Shown here: positions 2,443 through 7,483 of the stretch, piece after piece | Layout of the letters: the number at the start of each line of letters is the position of its first letter | Position numbering within the stretch: position 1 is the stretch's first letter | IMG/VR virus record: IMGVR_UViG_3300021963_000027 | Coordinates: 120,182 to 184,181 of that record | DNA from: a virus | Length of the DNA: 64,000 nt | Direction: 5' to 3' (one strand) | Translations under genes and position numbers: made by a program | Notes under the pieces: model-generated | What the model was told of the DNA's origin: nothing | What the model saw: the letters and a program-made list of their open reading frames with translations, nothing else | Database searches by the model: none

Positions 2443-3858
2443 TTATCGGCTTATTTCCTCCCAGTCCATAGAAGCATATAACCCCGTAGTTCCGCTAGAA
2501 CTATTAACACCAGCAACCAATGTTAGCTCATAAGGAGTATTGGTAAATGAATTTCTCTCTAATTGAAATTTAAATAATGCTTCTTTTAGAATATCTACAC
2601 CTGAAGAGCTTTGATTGTTAGAAGATATATACCCGCTAGCTAATACTCTACCACCAGCAAAACTTGTACCACTGATGTTGTATTCTACGGAACTATTTAT
2701 TCCTGCACTTAACCAAGATCCTCCTGTTGTTGTTCCACTGGCTACAACTCTCCAATTATAGACTTTATTATCTCCTGCACCTAAAATAGATAATGCAGTT
2801 AAAATAACAATAGCATCTAATCTATCTGGAGAAGATCTTAGTTTAATAGAAACAATTGGATAATATGTATTTGCAGCCGCAAAGGTTCTTGGGGTATCAA
2901 TTGGGATAGATGCTGCTTGTTGTAAGCCTCTTAACTCGTAACCACCTTCAGATATAGCAGTGCTACAAACTTGTTTTAATTTACTCGGTCCTGAAGTTGC
3001 AGCTTTATTTTCAATTTCATATCTAAGCGGTAGTGATGCTGTTGTAATGTATGTTGAGTCAATTAAGTTAGCATGGTGAAAGTAATGGCAAGCTACAAAC
3101 TGACCATTGATAACAAATCCTGTTCTCACAGTACCTAGACCGAGCCATTCAATGTCAGCCCATAGAATCTGCGCTTTTGTGATGTCTAGAGTAATTCCAG
3201 ATTTTCCTGATCCGTCTAAGCGATCTACATTCCATTGTGATTGAGGGATACGGTTGGATGAAAGCGATCCAGAAGTAATGCTACGTTCAACCATGTAAAG
3301 AGTGCTATCGTCTAACTCTAAGTAGATACCATTATCAACACCAAAATAACCAACACGTTGTCTAAGATTTGTCTTGGCTTGGTTGAAGGTGAATGTATTT
3401 AACAGCTGTAAGCTCTTACCAGGTTGATATGCAAATACTTTAGTAGTTTCGCGGTACACTTTAGAGCCGCTTAGAGCGTCAACTTTCAATTCTACAAGAC
3501 CTTGATTTTGAACGAATTCCGCAGAAGCAGAGGTTGTTGTAGTTCCACCTGTTAATGTTGCCCAAAGGTTGTTATCCGCATATCTATGAGACGAGTCAAA
3601 AAGAGTCAAAGGACTTGATGTTCTCGTTCTTCCGAATGCGTCACTTGCCATGTTGAAATTGCCACTAAAGTTGCTTGTCGTGTCATCAATATTTTTTACC
3701 AAAACAGCATATTTTGGATATTCGACTATTTGGGGAGAACCGAAAGATGGATCTGCCATTGCCGATGTTGCTGGAAATCTGACATCATTTACAATCTCAA
3801 CAAATTTACCGCTTTCGGTATTTGCAGCGTTTGTCCATACTTTAGTATTAATTGGCAT
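2443..3858 (-). CDS. Conserved phage protein, probably structural and beta-rich
   Basis: 471-aa S/T/G-rich ORF with DAFGRTRTSSP.TLFD and YQPGKS..RVGYF motifs. TAAATA precedes the ATG on the minus strand. Confidence 0.6.
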   Translation of the reverse strand: MPINTKVWTNAANTESGKFVEIVNDVRFPATSAMADPSFGSPQIVEYPKYAVLVKNIDDTTSNFSGNFNMASDAFGRTRTSSPLTLFDSSHRYADNNLWATLTGGTTTTSASAEFVQNQGLVELKVDALSGSKVYRETTKVFAYQPGKSLQLLNTFTFNQAKTNLRQRVGYFGVDNGIYLELDDSTLYMVERSITSGSLSSNRIPQSQWNVDRLDGSGKSGITLDITKAQILWADIEWLGLGTVRTGFVINGQFVACHYFHHANLIDSTYITTASLPLRYEIENKAATSGPSKLKQVCSTAISEGGYELRGLQQAASIPIDTPRTFAAANTYYPIVSIKLRSSPDRLDAIVILTALSILGAGDNKVYNWRVVASGTTTGGSWLSAGINSSVEYNISGTSFAGGRVLASGYISSNNQSSSGVDILKEALFKFQLERNSFTNTPYELTLVAGVNSSSGTTGLYASMDWEEISR

Positions 3859-3894
3859 ATTTTTATTTAATCATTTGATGAGGTTAATATCGTA

Positions 3895-3922
3895 TTGACT
3901 TTTGCATTTCGTGGTTTATCAT
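3895..3922 (+). promoter_or_regulatory. Sigma70-like promoter for polB
   Basis: TTGACT-16-TATCAT, ending 6 nt before ATG 3929. Confidence 0.5.
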
Positions 3923-3928
3923 TTTTTT

Positions 3929-4321
3929 ATGTATAGGAATTGTATTTACAACAACCGTGAGCGTAAGATTTTCTTATGGACATGGGATGAAAACGGAGAG
4001 CGTGTAAAAGAAGAACACGACTTCAAACCATATATTCTTTTAGAGGATAAAGGTGGTAAAGAGAAATCCATCTATGGGACTCCTCTCAAAAAGAAAGAAT
4101 TTGCTTCTTCGTATGACAGAAATAATTTCGTAAAAGATAGTAATATCAAGCGAATCTACGAAAACCTTCCCCCATATCAACAATTTTTGATTGATAATTA
4201 TTGGTCAGTTTGTGAGGATGACAATTTCTCCCAATATCCTTTGAAGGTTGCTTATCTAGACATCGAGTGTCCATGTTCTAATTATACAAGTGATCATGAA
4301 GTTAAAATACGTAAAAAATAG
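3929..4321 (+). CDS. gp43: Family B DNA polymerase, N-terminal fragment (ends just after ExoI)
   Basis: T4-like N-domain (FKPY) and ExoI YLDIECP, then a 15-aa tail and TAG. Confidence 0.85.
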   Translation: MYRNCIYNNRERKIFLWTWDENGERVKEEHDFKPYILLEDKGGKEKSIYGTPLKKKEFASSYDRNNFVKDSNIKRIYENLPPYQQFLIDNYWSVCEDDNFSQYPLKVAYLDIECPCSNYTSDHEVKIRKK

Positions 4322-4352
4322 AATTTAGATATCGAATGTCCTAAATAGTAAT

Positions 4353-5225
4353 ATGGACTATCAATATCAATACGATAATTTAATCAAAACATATAAAAAT
4401 CGCGAATCAGAAGTAATTAAAGATTATTATGAGACACATCATATAACTCCTATCTGTAAGGGTGGGAATAATGATATTACTAATTTAGTGAAATTATCTG
4501 CTAAAGCACATTATGTCGCACACCATTTATTATGTATGATATATCCCAACGACTACCAGTTAGCATGTGCGTTCAACGGTATGTGCGCTAAAAATACAAA
4601 AAATAGTAAAAGGGAATATTCTGCAAGAATGTACCAAACAGCGAGAAAACATTTTTCTAAAAATCACCCGTGTAAACGACCTGAAATTAAACAGAAATCT
4701 GCTGAAACTCGTAACAAAAACTATGAGATAAATAAGAAAAAAAGATCAGAAAAGACGATTATTAGCTTAATCAATAAATATAATGAATCGGGTATTAATC
4801 ATGATGGGGGATATTTGAGGTGTGAAAATTGTAATAATAAAATACCTCATGATCATAAAAGATTTTGTGGTAAGCTGTGTCACGATATTTTTCAAACTAA
4901 AAACTTTCATAGAAGTGATATCCAACACCAAAAGATGGTTGAAAACATTAATAAATATTTCACCAATCTACCAGAAGATAAATTGAAAAAACATCTTGAA
5001 AATTCTATTCACTCTGATAAAGTTGATCATGTTAAACGAGGTTTAGAAATTTCAAAAGCTAAAAAAGGTAAATCGACAAATCAAAATGAAATTATGGGTA
5101 AGAGATTTGCCGTAATGAGTGATTCAGAATTCGACAAACATTTAGAAACATTATCACCTTGGGTACATACTAGATTTAAAAAATTGAGAGAAAAATGGAA
5201 AAACATATTACAGTCGGAGAGTTGA
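4353..5225 (+). CDS. HNH homing endonuclease inserted in polB
   Basis: HHITPICKGGNNDITNLVKLSAKAHYVAHHLL HNH motif plus CxxC/CxxxC elements. It lies between the two polB fragments. Confidence 0.9.
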   Translation: MDYQYQYDNLIKTYKNRESEVIKDYYETHHITPICKGGNNDITNLVKLSAKAHYVAHHLLCMIYPNDYQLACAFNGMCAKNTKNSKREYSARMYQTARKHFSKNHPCKRPEIKQKSAETRNKNYEINKKKRSEKTIISLINKYNESGINHDGGYLRCENCNNKIPHDHKRFCGKLCHDIFQTKNFHRSDIQHQKMVENINKYFTNLPEDKLKKHLENSIHSDKVDHVKRGLEISKAKKGKSTNQNEIMGKRFAVMSDSEFDKHLETLSPWVHTRFKKLREKWKNILQSES

Positions 5226-7483
5226 GGTCATATATTGGCGAATATGAGGTTTGGGATGAAGAACGTGGTAGATGGGTTGATATCACTGATTCGTGTTACT
5301 TGAAAAAAGGTGGTTTTCCAGAACCAGAAACAGCAGAAGCAGTGATAAATCTGATCACTGTGTTCGATTCATTTTCTAAAATGTATCATGTCTTCGGTCT
5401 GAAGAATTACCACACAACCAGAGATGATGTTCGATATTATTTTTGTAAATCAGAAGAAGATTTGCTCAAATCATTTATCAAGTATTTCAGAAAAGAGGGA
5501 TTTGATGTGATTAGTGGATGGAACATAGCAGGATTCGATATCCCATACTTGATCAACAGAATCACATTTGAATTGGGAGAAGAATGGGCGAAGAAATTGT
5601 CACCAATTGAAAGGATTTACGAAAAGACAAATCCAAATGGTAAATTTGGAATGCCTACCAAGGAGTATGTGATCGAAGGAATTTCTATTTTGGATTATTA
5701 TGTGATGTATATGAAATTCAGCTTAGAGAAGCAAGAATCATACAAGTTGGATAATATCGGAGAAGTTGAATTAGGTATCAATAAAATTCAGCATGAAGGT
5801 AATCTATGGGAATTGGCTAAAAAAGATTGGTATACCTACACTGATTACAACATTCGCGATGTGGAAATTTGTGTTAAATTAGACGAGAAAAAGGGATACA
5901 TCAATCTTCTTCGATTCCTCGCATACACGGGACTATGTGATTTGGAAAATGCTATCAAAACAGTCCCACCAATGAACGGTGCTATCGCTATTCGTGCGCG
6001 TATGCGCGGAGAGTATATCCCCACGTTTATTCGTCCTGTGACCGATTTCAAAGCACCTGGAGGTTATGTGGCAGAACCAAGAGTAGGGTTCGCTGAGAAT
6101 ATCGTGTCATTTGATGCCAACTCTCTGTATCCATCAGTCATGATTTCGCTCAATCTCTCTCCTGAGACTAAAATCGGTAGAGTTGAAAAGGATGGTGATA
6201 AAGTGAAAATTCACCATGTGTCAGGAAGGCTTTTTGATATGACTAAAGAAAACTTTAAGAAGTTCATGGATGAAGAAAAGGCAGCTTTGACTAAAGCTGG
6301 ATTTCTATTTTCTCAGAAGAAACGTGGTCTTGTTCCTGAGTTCTTGGATAACTTGTATTCCAAACGTAAGGAGATGAAGAACAAGATGTTGGAGTCTCGT
6401 AAGAAAGGAGATAAAGAAGGGGAACAGAAATTTGATAGTATTCAATACGCTTATAAAATCCACCTTAACTCTCTCTATGGTTACATGCTCAACAAATATG
6501 CTCCCCTTGGTGATGAGGATATTGGAACATCTGTGACATTGACAGGTCAAGCAGTTATTAAGAAAAGTAATGATTTGTTCATGGAATACCTATCACAGTA
6601 TTTCGATAATAAAGAAGAAATCGAGAAATCTCTGATATACAATGATACTGATAGCTTCTACACTTCTTTGAAGATATTCGAAAAGATTGGATATGTCTTA
6701 AAAGATGGGGATAAAGTTTCTGATAAATTTTATGGTTTGTGTCAAGATGTTGAAGACTTCGTAAATGACGGAATCACAAAGTGGGCTAAACAGAATTTGA
6801 AAAGTATTGACCCAAGATTCGTGTTTAAGAGAGAAAGCATCTGCGATAGTGGTATTTTCATTGGTAAAAAATATTACGCTCTTCATAAATTGGATGAGGA
6901 GGGTGTCGTGATGAATAAATTCAAATATATCGGAGTCGATGTAGTGAAAACCACGATGCCTAAGAAAGTGAAACCATATGTCAAGAAAGTCATTGAACAC
7001 ATGATCATGACTCAATCCTTAAAAGAAACCAACGATTTATTCAACGAAGCATATGAAGAATTTAAGAAATTACCCATCACAGATATTGCCAAGATTTCTG
7101 GTATGAATAATTACTCGGAATATTCAGCAAGATGTAATGGTATGAATACTGTAAAGGGGATGCCGAGTCACTTGAAAGCTGCTTATTATCACGATTTGAT
7201 CGTTGAACAGAATGGATGGACATCCAAATATGATAAATTCAAATCAGGGGATAAAGTGAAAATGGTATATATCAAGAAACCAAACAAATATAATTTGGAG
7301 ATGATTGGATTCAAAGGAGAATGGCAGACTGAATTTGATGATATCTTCACAGTTGATTATGAGAAAATGTTTGGTAAGGTATTCTACGCTGCAATTGAGA
7401 GATTCTACGAAGCAGTCGGATGGAAACTTAGAAAACCATCAGAGAATCTCACGGTGGAATTGGAAGATTTGTTTGGAGAGTAA
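5195..7483 (+). CDS. gp43: Family B DNA polymerase, C-terminal fragment
   Basis: FPEP, ExoII GWNIAGFDIPYL, ExoIII YNIRDV, SFDANSLYPS, KIHLNSLYG, YNDTDS, and a clamp-binding-like tail LEDLFGE. Confidence 0.95.
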   Translation: MEKHITVGELRSYIGEYEVWDEERGRWVDITDSCYLKKGGFPEPETAEAVINLITVFDSFSKMYHVFGLKNYHTTRDDVRYYFCKSEEDLLKSFIKYFRKEGFDVISGWNIAGFDIPYLINRITFELGEEWAKKLSPIERIYEKTNPNGKFGMPTKEYVIEGISILDYYVMYMKFSLEKQESYKLDNIGEVELGINKIQHEGNLWELAKKDWYTYTDYNIRDVEICVKLDEKKGYINLLRFLAYTGLCDLENAIKTVPPMNGAIAIRARMRGEYIPTFIRPVTDFKAPGGYVAEPRVGFAENIVSFDANSLYPSVMISLNLSPETKIGRVEKDGDKVKIHHVSGRLFDMTKENFKKFMDEEKAALTKAGFLFSQKKRGLVPEFLDNLYSKRKEMKNKMLESRKKGDKEGEQKFDSIQYAYKIHLNSLYGYMLNKYAPLGDEDIGTSVTLTGQAVIKKSNDLFMEYLSQYFDNKEEIEKSLIYNDTDSFYTSLKIFEKIGYVLKDGDKVSDKFYGLCQDVEDFVNDGITKWAKQNLKSIDPRFVFKRESICDSGIFIGKKYYALHKLDEEGVVMNKFKYIGVDVVKTTMPKKVKPYVKKVIEHMIMTQSLKETNDLFNEAYEEFKKLPITDIAKISGMNNYSEYSARCNGMNTVKGMPSHLKAAYYHDLIVEQNGWTSKYDKFKSGDKVKMVYIKKPNKYNLEMIGFKGEWQTEFDDIFTVDYEKMFGKVFYAAIERFYEAVGWKLRKPSENLTVELEDLFGE

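What the first reader, a model, noticed from the sequence alone, without database searches (positions are those of the whole stretch)
3929..5330. PolB split at ExoI, with halves capped by peptides resembling a splicing-dead split intein
Seen: the N-fragment ends ExoI LDIECP + CSNYTSDHEVKIRKK + TAG. The C-fragment begins MEKHITVGELRSYIGEYEVWDEERGRWVDITDSCYLKK (38 aa) before resuming at GGFPEP. Established: in T4-type gp43 the DIE motif is followed within a few residues by FPxP, so both peptides are additions, and the exonuclease site must be assembled from two chains. Inference: the 15-aa tail (D-x-x-V-x-I-R-K-K) and the leader (EK-x-I-T-V-x-E-L...Y-E-V) resemble, from my recollection, the short IntN and the start of IntC of atypically split phage inteins such as VidaL or PolB16. 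No TxxH block and no terminal HN-C/S/T follows, so splicing looks impossible. The pair may be a domesticated intein remnant acting as a non-covalent clamp that reunites a genes-in-pieces polymerase.
Basis: partly seen in the sequence, partly recalled or inferred. Interest (0 to 1): 0.88.

Follow-up and report, generated by a model that had tools for sequence, protein, structure and literature searches.

The report
Endonuclease-split phage polymerase with clamp peptides
The only DNA polymerase gene of this T4-like phage is cut in two just after a catalytic motif by a mobile homing-endonuclease gene that carries two short, oppositely charged peptide-coding ends, which probably zip the two protein halves together without splicing. 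This kind of arrangement is already known, and its likeness to an intein is weak.

Summary
The PolB N-fragment (3929-4321) ends with the ExoI motif plus a 15-aa tail and TAG. The C-fragment (5195-7483) starts with a 38-40-aa leader before FPEP.

Relatives that are 93-96% identical are uninterrupted and lack both peptides. Another phage, whose polymerase exons are only 76-80% identical in DNA, carries the same tail, spacer, endonuclease gene and leader at 96-100% identity. So window ~4268-5335 moves as one cassette.

The tail and leader are the two halves of a ~55-aa mini-domain. It occurs in 121 PolB clusters, 63 contiguous and 58 split at the same turn. The split forms carry an intact endonuclease gene, a decayed one, or none.

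AlphaFold2 places the split in the turn of a beta-hairpin. All 15 tails examined are basic and all 15 leaders acidic.

This closely parallels the Aeh1 nrdA/mobE "genes in pieces" case, where such tails are essential.

The parts
3895..3922 (+). Sigma-70-like promoter match (TTGACT, 16 nt, TATCAT) just upstream of the N-fragment start.
   Evidence: This is a consensus match only; matches are not enriched over shuffles.
3929..4321 (+). PolB N-fragment gene (43A-like, 130 aa). It encodes the N-terminal domain and the ExoI strand (D-I-E at 4259-4267), then the 15-aa basic tail and TAG.
   Evidence: phrog_262 DNA polymerase, E 2.6e-13. Contiguous with the rest of PolB in relatives.
4274..4318 (+). 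Tail, 15 aa ending KIRKK. It is the first beta-strand of the mini-domain and part of the mobile cassette.
   Evidence: net positive in 15/15 lineages; strand; 95.8% identical to L042 while the exons are 79%.
4322..4352 (+). Spacer. It holds a recoded relic of the ExoI codons (LDIECPK, 4325-4345), two stop codons, and a TAAATA late-promoter-like motif (4342-4347) 5 nt before the endonuclease ATG.
   Evidence: The spacer is 100% identical in L042. TAAATA lies within 45 nt upstream of the ATG in 25/84 ORFs, mostly 5-6 nt before it, against 2.9% of random positions.
4328..4368 (+). Predicted RNA hairpin. The relic (4328-4341) pairs with endonuclease codons 1-6 (4355-4368); the loop holds TAAATA and the A and T of the ATG.
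   Evidence: The duplex is more stable than shuffled controls in 7 of 13 lineages (p<0.05). RNAalifold on a MAFFT alignment gave no consensus.
4353..5225 (+). Free-standing MobE-like HNH homing endonuclease gene (290 aa). It is in a different frame from the polymerase and overlaps the C-fragment start by 31 nt.
   Evidence: phrog_655 homing endonuclease, E 1.6e-32. 41% identity over 103 aa to RB3 MobE, E 8e-21. Weak Pfam HNH match. Single copy in the genome.
5186..5190 (+). Shine-Dalgarno-like GAGAG, 4 nt before the C-fragment ATG and inside the endonuclease gene.
   Evidence: Read from the sequence; inference.
5195..5314 (+). Leader, 40 aa, net charge -3. It supplies the second strand, a short helix and the Y-E-V-W-D-E hairpin of the mini-domain, and is part of the mobile cassette.
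   Evidence: 99.2% identical to L042.
5195..7483 (+). PolB C-fragment gene (43B-like, 762 aa), encoding ExoII, ExoIII and the polymerase domain.
   Evidence: PF03104 E 5.4e-20 and PF00136 E 1.3e-30. It is the only PolB in the 184-kb genome.
4268..5335 (+). Extent of the mobile cassette: the tract that is near-identical to L042, set between exons that are only 76-80% identical.
   Evidence: Mismatch map. Identities of each part.

Best explanation
A MobE-family HNH homing endonuclease gene sits inside the phage's only family-B DNA polymerase gene. It turns the gene into two cistrons.

The mobile unit is window ~4268-5335. It consists of the tail codons plus a stop, a short spacer with a late-promoter-like motif, the endonuclease gene, and the leader codons.

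The tail and leader are the two halves of a ~55-aa mini-domain (hairpin, short helix, hairpin). This mini-domain lies between the ExoI D-I-E strand and FPxP in a large subgroup of T4-like polymerases. The endonuclease gene occupies the turn of its first hairpin.

After separate translation, the basic tail strand of the N-fragment pairs with the acidic first strand of the leader. This rebuilds the mini-domain and docks the ExoI strand into the exonuclease domain. No RNA or protein splicing occurs.

Shown: the anatomy, the mobility of the cassette as one unit, the distribution, and the absence of splicing signatures.

Inferred: that the two peptides bind each other and are needed for activity, that the endonuclease is active, and that it is expressed late.
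For: - Uninterrupted, insert-free alleles occur in 93-96% identical relatives.
- Window against L042: exons are 76-80% identical, but the tail is 95.8%, the spacer 100%, the endonuclease gene 98.5% and the leader 99.2%. The boundaries fall at ~4268 and ~5335.
- Cassette-bearing rows are scattered among 15 plain rows in one PolB clade, which needs at least 3 changes.
- The same module is split at the same spot in many lineages. The endonuclease gene is intact, decayed, or absent (gaps of 13, 91 and 92 nt), and some lineages have the module fused.
- 121 PolB clusters carry the module, 63 contiguous and 58 split.
- AF2 predicts tail strand, a two-residue turn at the split point, then leader strand. 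The insert core has pLDDT 78-90 when folded alone and 62-79 in context.
- Charges: tails are +2 to +6 and leaders -3 to -10, in 15 of 15 lineages.
- The Y-E-V-W-D-E motif is 0.84-0.97 conserved in split forms (W column 0.64) and 0.46-0.92 in fused forms (W 0.35). Flanking polymerase columns are equally conserved in both sets.
- The endonuclease is MobE-like.
- There is only one PolB in the genome.
- Precedent: the Aeh1 NrdA-a/MobE/NrdA-b tails are essential and have the same charge pattern, and mobE overlaps the downstream half (PMC3045599).
Against:
- The confidence of the insert drops to pLDDT 62-79 in the full-context model.
- In Aeh1 the tails were not needed for the two halves to associate, only for a higher-order assembly (PMC3045599). 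A simple zipper role is therefore not guaranteed.
- The higher conservation in split forms could reflect recent shared ancestry of a horizontally spreading cassette rather than selection.
- The target site and activity of the endonuclease are unknown.
Confidence: 0.8

Rival explanations
1. Origin rival, and the reader's reading: the mini-domain is the surviving N-terminal ~55 residues of a Hint (intein) domain. It was split at the same early turn as atypically split inteins, lost its blocks B, F and G and its splicing, and persists only as a clamp.
For: - In a Foldseek search of the PDB, 7 of the top 50 hits are inteins.
- The insert sits at a catalytic motif and is associated with a homing endonuclease gene.
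- Its two halves have opposite charges, as split-intein halves do (PMC2677866).
- Crona et al. raised the same idea for the Aeh1 tails (PMC3045599).
Against: - No Pfam intein family matches at E<=10.
- No intein appears in a profile search of PDB sequences.
- hhalign against 11 real intein N-termini from the same set of polymerases gives probability 0.2%.
- Pfam does detect the real inteins elsewhere in those proteins.
- There is no conserved nucleophile and no terminal Asn.
- No intermediate or longer form exists among 121 clusters.
Confidence: 0.18
2. Origin rival: the tail and leader arose from foreign, non-coding or random DNA brought in by the endonuclease gene and were then selected as sticky ends. 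Fused forms would be scars of endonuclease-gene loss and not ancestral.
For: - In the window's clade the insert is seen only together with the endonuclease gene.
- L047 shows loss of the endonuclease gene leaving a 13-nt gap, one step from fusion.
- This is the model proposed for Aeh1 (PMC3045599).
Against: - 63 contiguous clusters have more divergent insert sequences than the 58 split ones. This fits an older fused state from which one split lineage spread.
- A folded hairpin-helix-hairpin unit of 55 aa is more than a random sticky tail.
Confidence: 0.2
3. The interruption is removed at the RNA or translation level (group I intron, bypassing or readthrough), so that one polypeptide is made.
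For: - The two fragments are in the same frame, 345 codons apart.
- The recoded ExoI copy after the TAG is reminiscent of take-off and landing sites.
Against: - There is no Rfam intron or any credible RNA family match at E<=10.
- The frame between the fragments is full of stop codons.
- The tail and leader are conserved as protein across lineages that are 28-50% identical, and they are translated in fused alleles.
- Split alleles with only 13-92 nt between the halves leave no room for a ribozyme.
- Hopping from the first to the second ExoI copy would meet two stop codons at once.
Confidence: 0.02
4. The polymerase gene is broken and non-functional, either a decaying genome or an assembly artefact.
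For: The genome record is estimated to be 89% complete, so a second polymerase cannot be fully excluded.
Against: - Both ORFs are intact and conserved in many independent assemblies from different samples.
- L063 is 99-100% identical over the whole region.
- This is the only PolB found in the genome.
Confidence: 0.02

Closest known systems
Aeromonas phage Aeh1 nrdA-a / mobE / nrdA-b, 'genes in pieces' (Friedrich 2007; Crona et al. 2011, PMC3045599)
   Same: - A MobE-type HNH endonuclease gene splits an essential enzyme gene between two adjacent beta-strands at the active site.
- The endonuclease gene overlaps the start of the downstream half.
- The upstream half has a basic C-terminal tail and the downstream half an acidic N-terminal tail. 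Both are absent from uninterrupted homologues.
- There is no splicing.
- The authors proposed that the tails were inherited with the endonuclease gene.
   Different: - The host gene is PolB at ExoI, not the RNR.
- The two tails here form one predicted folded mini-domain that also exists fused in 63 PolB clusters.
- Co-transfer of the tails with the endonuclease gene is directly visible here (96-100% against 76-80% identity).
- The arrangement recurs in dozens of lineages, not one phage.
- The function of the tails is untested here.
Split gene 43 (43A/43B) of Aeromonas phages 25 and 44RR (Petrov, Ratnayaka and Karam 2010, as reviewed in PMC2988022)
   Same: - A T4-type PolB is encoded as two cistrons that co-purify and are active.
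- Some alleles hold a free-standing homing endonuclease gene between the halves. Others hold only a short untranslated spacer, as do L047, L038 and L051 here.
   Different: - The split position is different; from my recollection it is not at ExoI.
- The endonuclease is a GIY-YIG (seg-like) enzyme, not an HNH one (PMC2677866).
- No conserved paired tail module has been described there.
Atypically split inteins with very short IntN (PolB16 OarG 15 aa, PMC10189870; VidaL; AceL NrdHF) and 'fractured genes' (Dassa et al. 2009, PMC2677866)
   Same: - A short N-piece and a longer C-piece flank a break in a phage replication gene.
- In fractured genes, a free-standing endonuclease gene lies between the halves.
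- The halves have electrostatic complementarity.
- There is weak fold likeness in register with the junction.
   Different: - The total here is only ~55 aa, against 130-185 aa for an intein.
- Blocks B, F and G, the position-1 and +1 nucleophiles, and the terminal Asn are all absent.
- There is no profile similarity.
- PolB16 sits at the DTD motif.
- Real split inteins at that DTD site coexist with this cassette in relatives such as P0018, P0027 and P0030, and Pfam recognises them.
T4 mobA with topoisomerase genes 39/60
   Same: An HNH Mob-family endonuclease gene splits an essential enzyme gene, and the two products carry tail-like extensions with a similar charge pattern (PMC3045599).
   Different: That case involves translational bypassing in gene 60. 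Nothing comparable is seen here.

Membership tests
Intein / Hint domain (including split inteins) | A complete Hint module with blocks A, B (TxxH), F and G, about 130 aa or more. | tested here: not met
   Tail plus leader is 53-68 aa in all 27 distinct inserts. There is no TxxH block and no F or G block. No longer form exists among 121 clusters.
Intein / Hint domain (including split inteins) | A conserved Cys/Ser/Thr at position 1, and a terminal Asn (or Gln/Asp) followed by a Cys/Ser/Thr at +1. | tested here: not met
   The first insert column reads C, S, H, P, M, F, T or K. The leader ends in variable residues directly before FPxP. The conserved S-C-Y lies 6-9 residues upstream of FPxP.
Intein / Hint domain (including split inteins) | Sequence or profile similarity to intein families. 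| tested here: not met
   Pfam at E<=10 gives none. A profile search against PDB sequences gives none. hhalign against 11 intein N-termini gives probability 0.2% and E 0.29. As a positive control, PF14890 is found at other sites of related PolBs.
Intein / Hint domain (including split inteins) | Hint fold. | tested here: inconclusive
Free-standing homing endonuclease cassette that creates genes in pieces (MobE type) | An HNH endonuclease gene of the Mob family between the two halves, in its own frame. | tested here: met
   phrog_655 E 1.6e-32. 41% identity to RB3 MobE, E 8e-21. The frames differ.
Free-standing homing endonuclease cassette that creates genes in pieces (MobE type) | Close relatives with an empty, uninterrupted site; patchy distribution; an element more conserved than its host gene. 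| tested here: met
Free-standing homing endonuclease cassette that creates genes in pieces (MobE type) | Decay and loss stages of the endonuclease gene in related lineages. | tested here: met
   Truncated ORFs lacking the HNH motif occur in L053/L067 and L064, and a 39-aa relic in L065. There is no endonuclease gene in L047 (13 nt), L038 (91 nt) or L051 (92 nt).
Free-standing homing endonuclease cassette that creates genes in pieces (MobE type) | The endonuclease cleaves the empty allele, and the two polypeptides assemble into an active enzyme. | not testable with these tools
   This needs biochemistry.
Group I intron carrying an endonuclease ORF | A ribozyme core flanking the ORF. | tested here: not met
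   Rfam with the E-value threshold over 3800-5600 gives no intron family. Only 31 nt lie before the ORF and none after it.
T4-type family B DNA polymerase (gp43) | ExoI, ExoII and ExoIII motifs, the polymerase domain, and the gp43 fold. | tested here: met
   Pfam PF03104 and PF00136. Motif residues are invariant. The model of the fused homologue matches RB69 gp43 with E 1.8e-27 and TM 0.73.

The most novel reading that the evidence does not exclude
The hairpin-helix-hairpin module is half of an ancient Hint domain that lost splicing but kept fragment association. It now travels with a MobE-like endonuclease gene as a portable 'split-and-clamp' adaptor. The cassette can therefore colonise the ExoI site even of polymerases that never had the module, because it brings its own means of reassembling the enzyme.
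Probability: 0.18. Interest if true: 0.85.

Novelty: new variant of a known kind. Interest (0 to 1): 0.6.

Why it matters
How essential genes survive fragmentation by selfish endonuclease genes has so far rested mainly on one biochemically studied case, Aeh1 NrdA.

This locus belongs to a large natural series: 58 split and 63 fused clusters, with every stage of endonuclease-gene decay. In this series the reassembly peptides are conserved, predicted to fold together, and visibly move with the endonuclease gene between diverged polymerases.

That makes three ideas directly testable:
- that a mobile element carries the remedy for the split it causes;
- that selection on such peptides relaxes once the halves fuse;
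- that they may descend from inteins.

The ~15 + ~40-aa pair is also a candidate small, natural, non-covalent split-protein tag.

Tried and rejected
No complex was folded.
- The 'atlas' fold library was absent.
- DNA search of the phage collection found only the HNH core of T-even mobE genes, and no close relative.
- tblastn alignments that seemed to extend cyanophage and pelagiphage polymerases into the leader were only alignment overhang. Syn9, Mosig and S-CREM2 lack the insert.
I fell back on per-lineage folds and duplex energies.
- The T4 late-promoter octamer TATAAATA is not enriched in the window. The shorter TAAATA next to start codons is.
- I considered that the leader's conserved D-S-C-Y might be a decayed duplicate of the D-I-E-V strand. 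This was suggested by an HMM alignment to RB69 (E 0.18) and by equal spacing to FPEP. I did not pursue it, because the score comes mainly from the FPEP flank.
- PF14890 intein hits in ten leader-bearing proteins all lie at other sites.
Full report
**Observation.**
A PolB N-fragment runs from ATG 3929 and ends with the ExoI motif, fifteen extra residues and TAG at 4319-4321.
- A C-fragment starts at ATG 5195 with 38 extra residues, then GG and FPEP.
- The two fragments are in the same frame, 345 codons apart.
- Pfam sees the exonuclease and polymerase domains only in the C-fragment. PHROGs assigns the N-fragment to DNA polymerase.
- ExoI is in the N-fragment, and ExoII and ExoIII are in the C-fragment. 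The proofreading site must therefore be built from two chains.
- The finding omits what lies between the fragments. This is a 290-aa ORF (4353-5225) in another frame that overlaps the C-fragment start by 31 nt.
- That ORF is a homing endonuclease (phrog_655, E 1.6e-32). It is 41% identical over its HNH half to MobE of phage RB3 (E 8e-21).
- No intron or other credible RNA family is found in 3800-5600.
- The genome is a 184-kb T4-like virus record, 89% complete, with this single PolB and a single copy of the endonuclease gene.

**The peptides belong to a mobile cassette.**
- IMG/VR holds about thirty relatives of this polymerase. Those 67-96% identical to the window are uninterrupted and read LDIECP, four residues, FPEP.
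- Three other lineages of the same clade carry the same arrangement as the window: L063 (near-identical), L042, and L043/L044.
- Between the window and L042 the polymerase exons are 76-80% identical in DNA. The tail is 95.8%, the spacer 100%, the endonuclease gene 98.5% and the leader 99.2% identical.
- Mismatches stop at 4267 and resume at 5336.
- On a PolB tree the cassette-bearing rows are scattered among fifteen plain rows.
- So window ~4268-5335, including both peptides, moved recently as one piece between diverged polymerase genes. It replaces four codons of the plain allele.

**The peptides are two halves of one module.**
- A profile of the leader found the same tail (ending K-[IV]-R-K-K) and leader (with invariant Y-E-V-W-D-E, W, S-x-Y) in polymerases only 28-50% identical to the window.
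- In these lineages the gene is split at exactly the same place. The content between the halves varies:
  - an intact MobE-like gene of 234-290 aa in most lineages;
  - a truncated gene in L053/L067 and L064;
  - a 39-aa relic in L065;
  - nothing but 13, 91 or 92 nt in L047, L038 and L051.
- In other lineages the tail and leader are fused in one ORF (L037/P0004, L058, P0029, P0044, P0057, P0075, P0085). Some of these are close sisters of split forms, such as P0029 and P0037, or P0004 and P0020.
- An exhaustive profile search of 1.84 billion representatives gives 124 clusters. Of these, 121 are PolBs: 63 fused and 58 split.
- None has a longer insert that could be an intact intein.

**Predicted structure and likely mechanism.**
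- AlphaFold2 was run on a fused homologue, with the split forms in the alignment. It gives the following order (numbering of the 89-aa construct; insert core pLDDT 78-90):
  - a strand formed by the tail;
  - a two-residue turn exactly at the split point;
  - a strand formed by the start of the leader;
  - a short helix;
  - a second hairpin made by E-V-W-D and the conserved Trp.
- The same elements appear, at pLDDT 62-79, when the whole N-terminal and exonuclease region is folded. That model matches RB69 gp43.
- All fifteen tails examined are net basic (+2 to +6) and all fifteen leaders net acidic (-3 to -10).
- The commonest-residue fraction of the Y-E-V-W-D-E columns is 0.84-0.97 in split forms (W column 0.64) and 0.46-0.92 in fused forms (W 0.35). 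Flanking polymerase columns are equally conserved in both sets.
- This difference fits stronger selection when the halves must find each other. It could also reflect more recent common ancestry of a spreading cassette.
- I infer that the tail strand and the leader strand pair between chains, rebuild the mini-domain, and hold the ExoI strand in the exonuclease sheet.

**Comparison with what is known.**
- The closest precedent is phage Aeh1. There mobE splits nrdA between two active-site strands and overlaps nrdA-b.
- In Aeh1 a basic C-terminal tail and an acidic N-terminal tail, absent from other NrdA proteins, are essential for activity.
- Those authors proposed that the tails came with the endonuclease gene. 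They also mentioned a degenerate intein as an alternative origin (PMC3045599).
- Split gp43 with a seg-like endonuclease gene, or with only a short spacer, is known in Aeromonas phages 25 and 44RR (PMC2988022; PMC2677866).
- The present case is therefore of a known kind. Four things are new:
  - the site, which is ExoI of PolB;
  - the fact that the two tails form one conserved, predicted folded unit;
  - the direct evidence that they travel with the endonuclease gene;
  - the size of the natural series.

**The intein question.**
- Sequence tests are negative:
  - no Pfam family of the Hint clan at E<=10;
  - no intein in a profile search of PDB sequences;
  - hhalign probability 0.2% against the N-termini of eleven real inteins found in the same set of polymerases.
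- Pfam does recognise those real inteins at their own sites.
- There is no conserved nucleophile, no terminal Asn, and no blocks B, F or G.
However its native N-extein ends in DTD, which I recognise as polymerase motif C (my reading, not the paper's wording), so it is not at ExoI (PMC10189870).
- Inteins are nevertheless the most enriched class in fold searches with the mini-domain model:
  - 7 of the top 50 Foldseek rows;
  - 10 of the top 20 in the second look;
- These alignments usually start at intein residue -3 to 2.
- I rate an intein origin at about 0.18. It concerns ancestry only. Present-day splicing is excluded.

**Control of the endonuclease gene (a side result).**
- The 31-nt spacer holds an in-frame copy of the ExoI codons that differs from the exon copy only at four third-codon positions, all synonymous. 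It is followed by two stop codons.
- Comparable D-I-E-like relics follow the N-fragment stop in most split lineages.
- In the window the relic pairs with the first codons of the endonuclease gene in a hairpin whose loop holds TAAATA and the start codon.
- The pairing is stronger than in shuffled controls in 7 of 13 lineages, and other lineages have different start-occluding hairpins.
- TAAATA lies within 45 nt upstream of the ATG of 25 of 84 ORFs in this window, mostly 5-6 nt before it, against 2.9% of random positions.
- This matches the T4 and Aeh1 scheme, in which read-through mRNA hides the endonuclease start and a late transcript that begins inside the hairpin frees it (PMC3045599). That reading is an inference.

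**Verdict.**
- The clamp idea is well founded but untested.
- The intein ancestry is neither shown nor excluded.
- The system is a new variant of the MobE-type genes-in-pieces arrangement.

Noticed in passing
window 4322-4368: A recoded in-frame copy of the ExoI codons (LDIECPK, then two stop codons) follows the N-fragment TAG. It is predicted to pair with the first codons of the endonuclease gene, enclosing TAAATA and the ATG. Similar relics follow the stop in most split lineages. The origin is open: it may be a relic of an older junction, and it may have been co-opted as a hairpin arm or an operator.
   Followed up: partly
window, whole (e.g. 45191, 52546, 41768, 50001, 3858 minus strand): The motif xTAAATA(A/G)T, mostly 5-6 nt before the ATG, precedes 25 of 84 ORFs of 90 aa or more, against 2.9% of random positions. 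It is probably this phage's late-promoter variant with near-leaderless spacing. The T4 octamer TATAAATA is not enriched.
   Followed up: partly
P0018, P0027, P0028, P0030, P0053, P0069-P0071 (C-termini); P0015, P0026, P0079: Relatives that carry the same ExoI leader also carry real inteins elsewhere. There are split-intein N-halves right after the DTD motif (the site type of PolB16 OarG), mini-inteins after an ILIN motif, and a LAGLIDADG intein in the exonuclease domain. Some of these polymerases are therefore encoded in three or more pieces.
   Followed up: partly
L035 3698-4957, L038 3267-4529; P0005, P0021, P0022, P0032-P0034: There is a second recurrent break about 410-425 aa into the C-fragment. 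The piece ends in a lysine- and glutamate-rich helical tail, such as ...KELKNIEDQLK. It may be another tail-mediated split, possibly in the fingers region.
   Followed up: no
L047 3478-3495 versus L053/L067: These are sister lineages with an identical tail. One has a decayed 209-aa endonuclease ORF. The other has only 13 nt between the two polymerase cistrons. This is a clean example of loss of the endonuclease gene with the split retained.
   Followed up: partly
L042 6294-7463 (minus strand): A TnpB/IS605 OrfB-like gene (PF01385, PF07282) lies directly downstream of the split polymerase in the L042 phage. It is absent at that place in the window.
   Followed up: no
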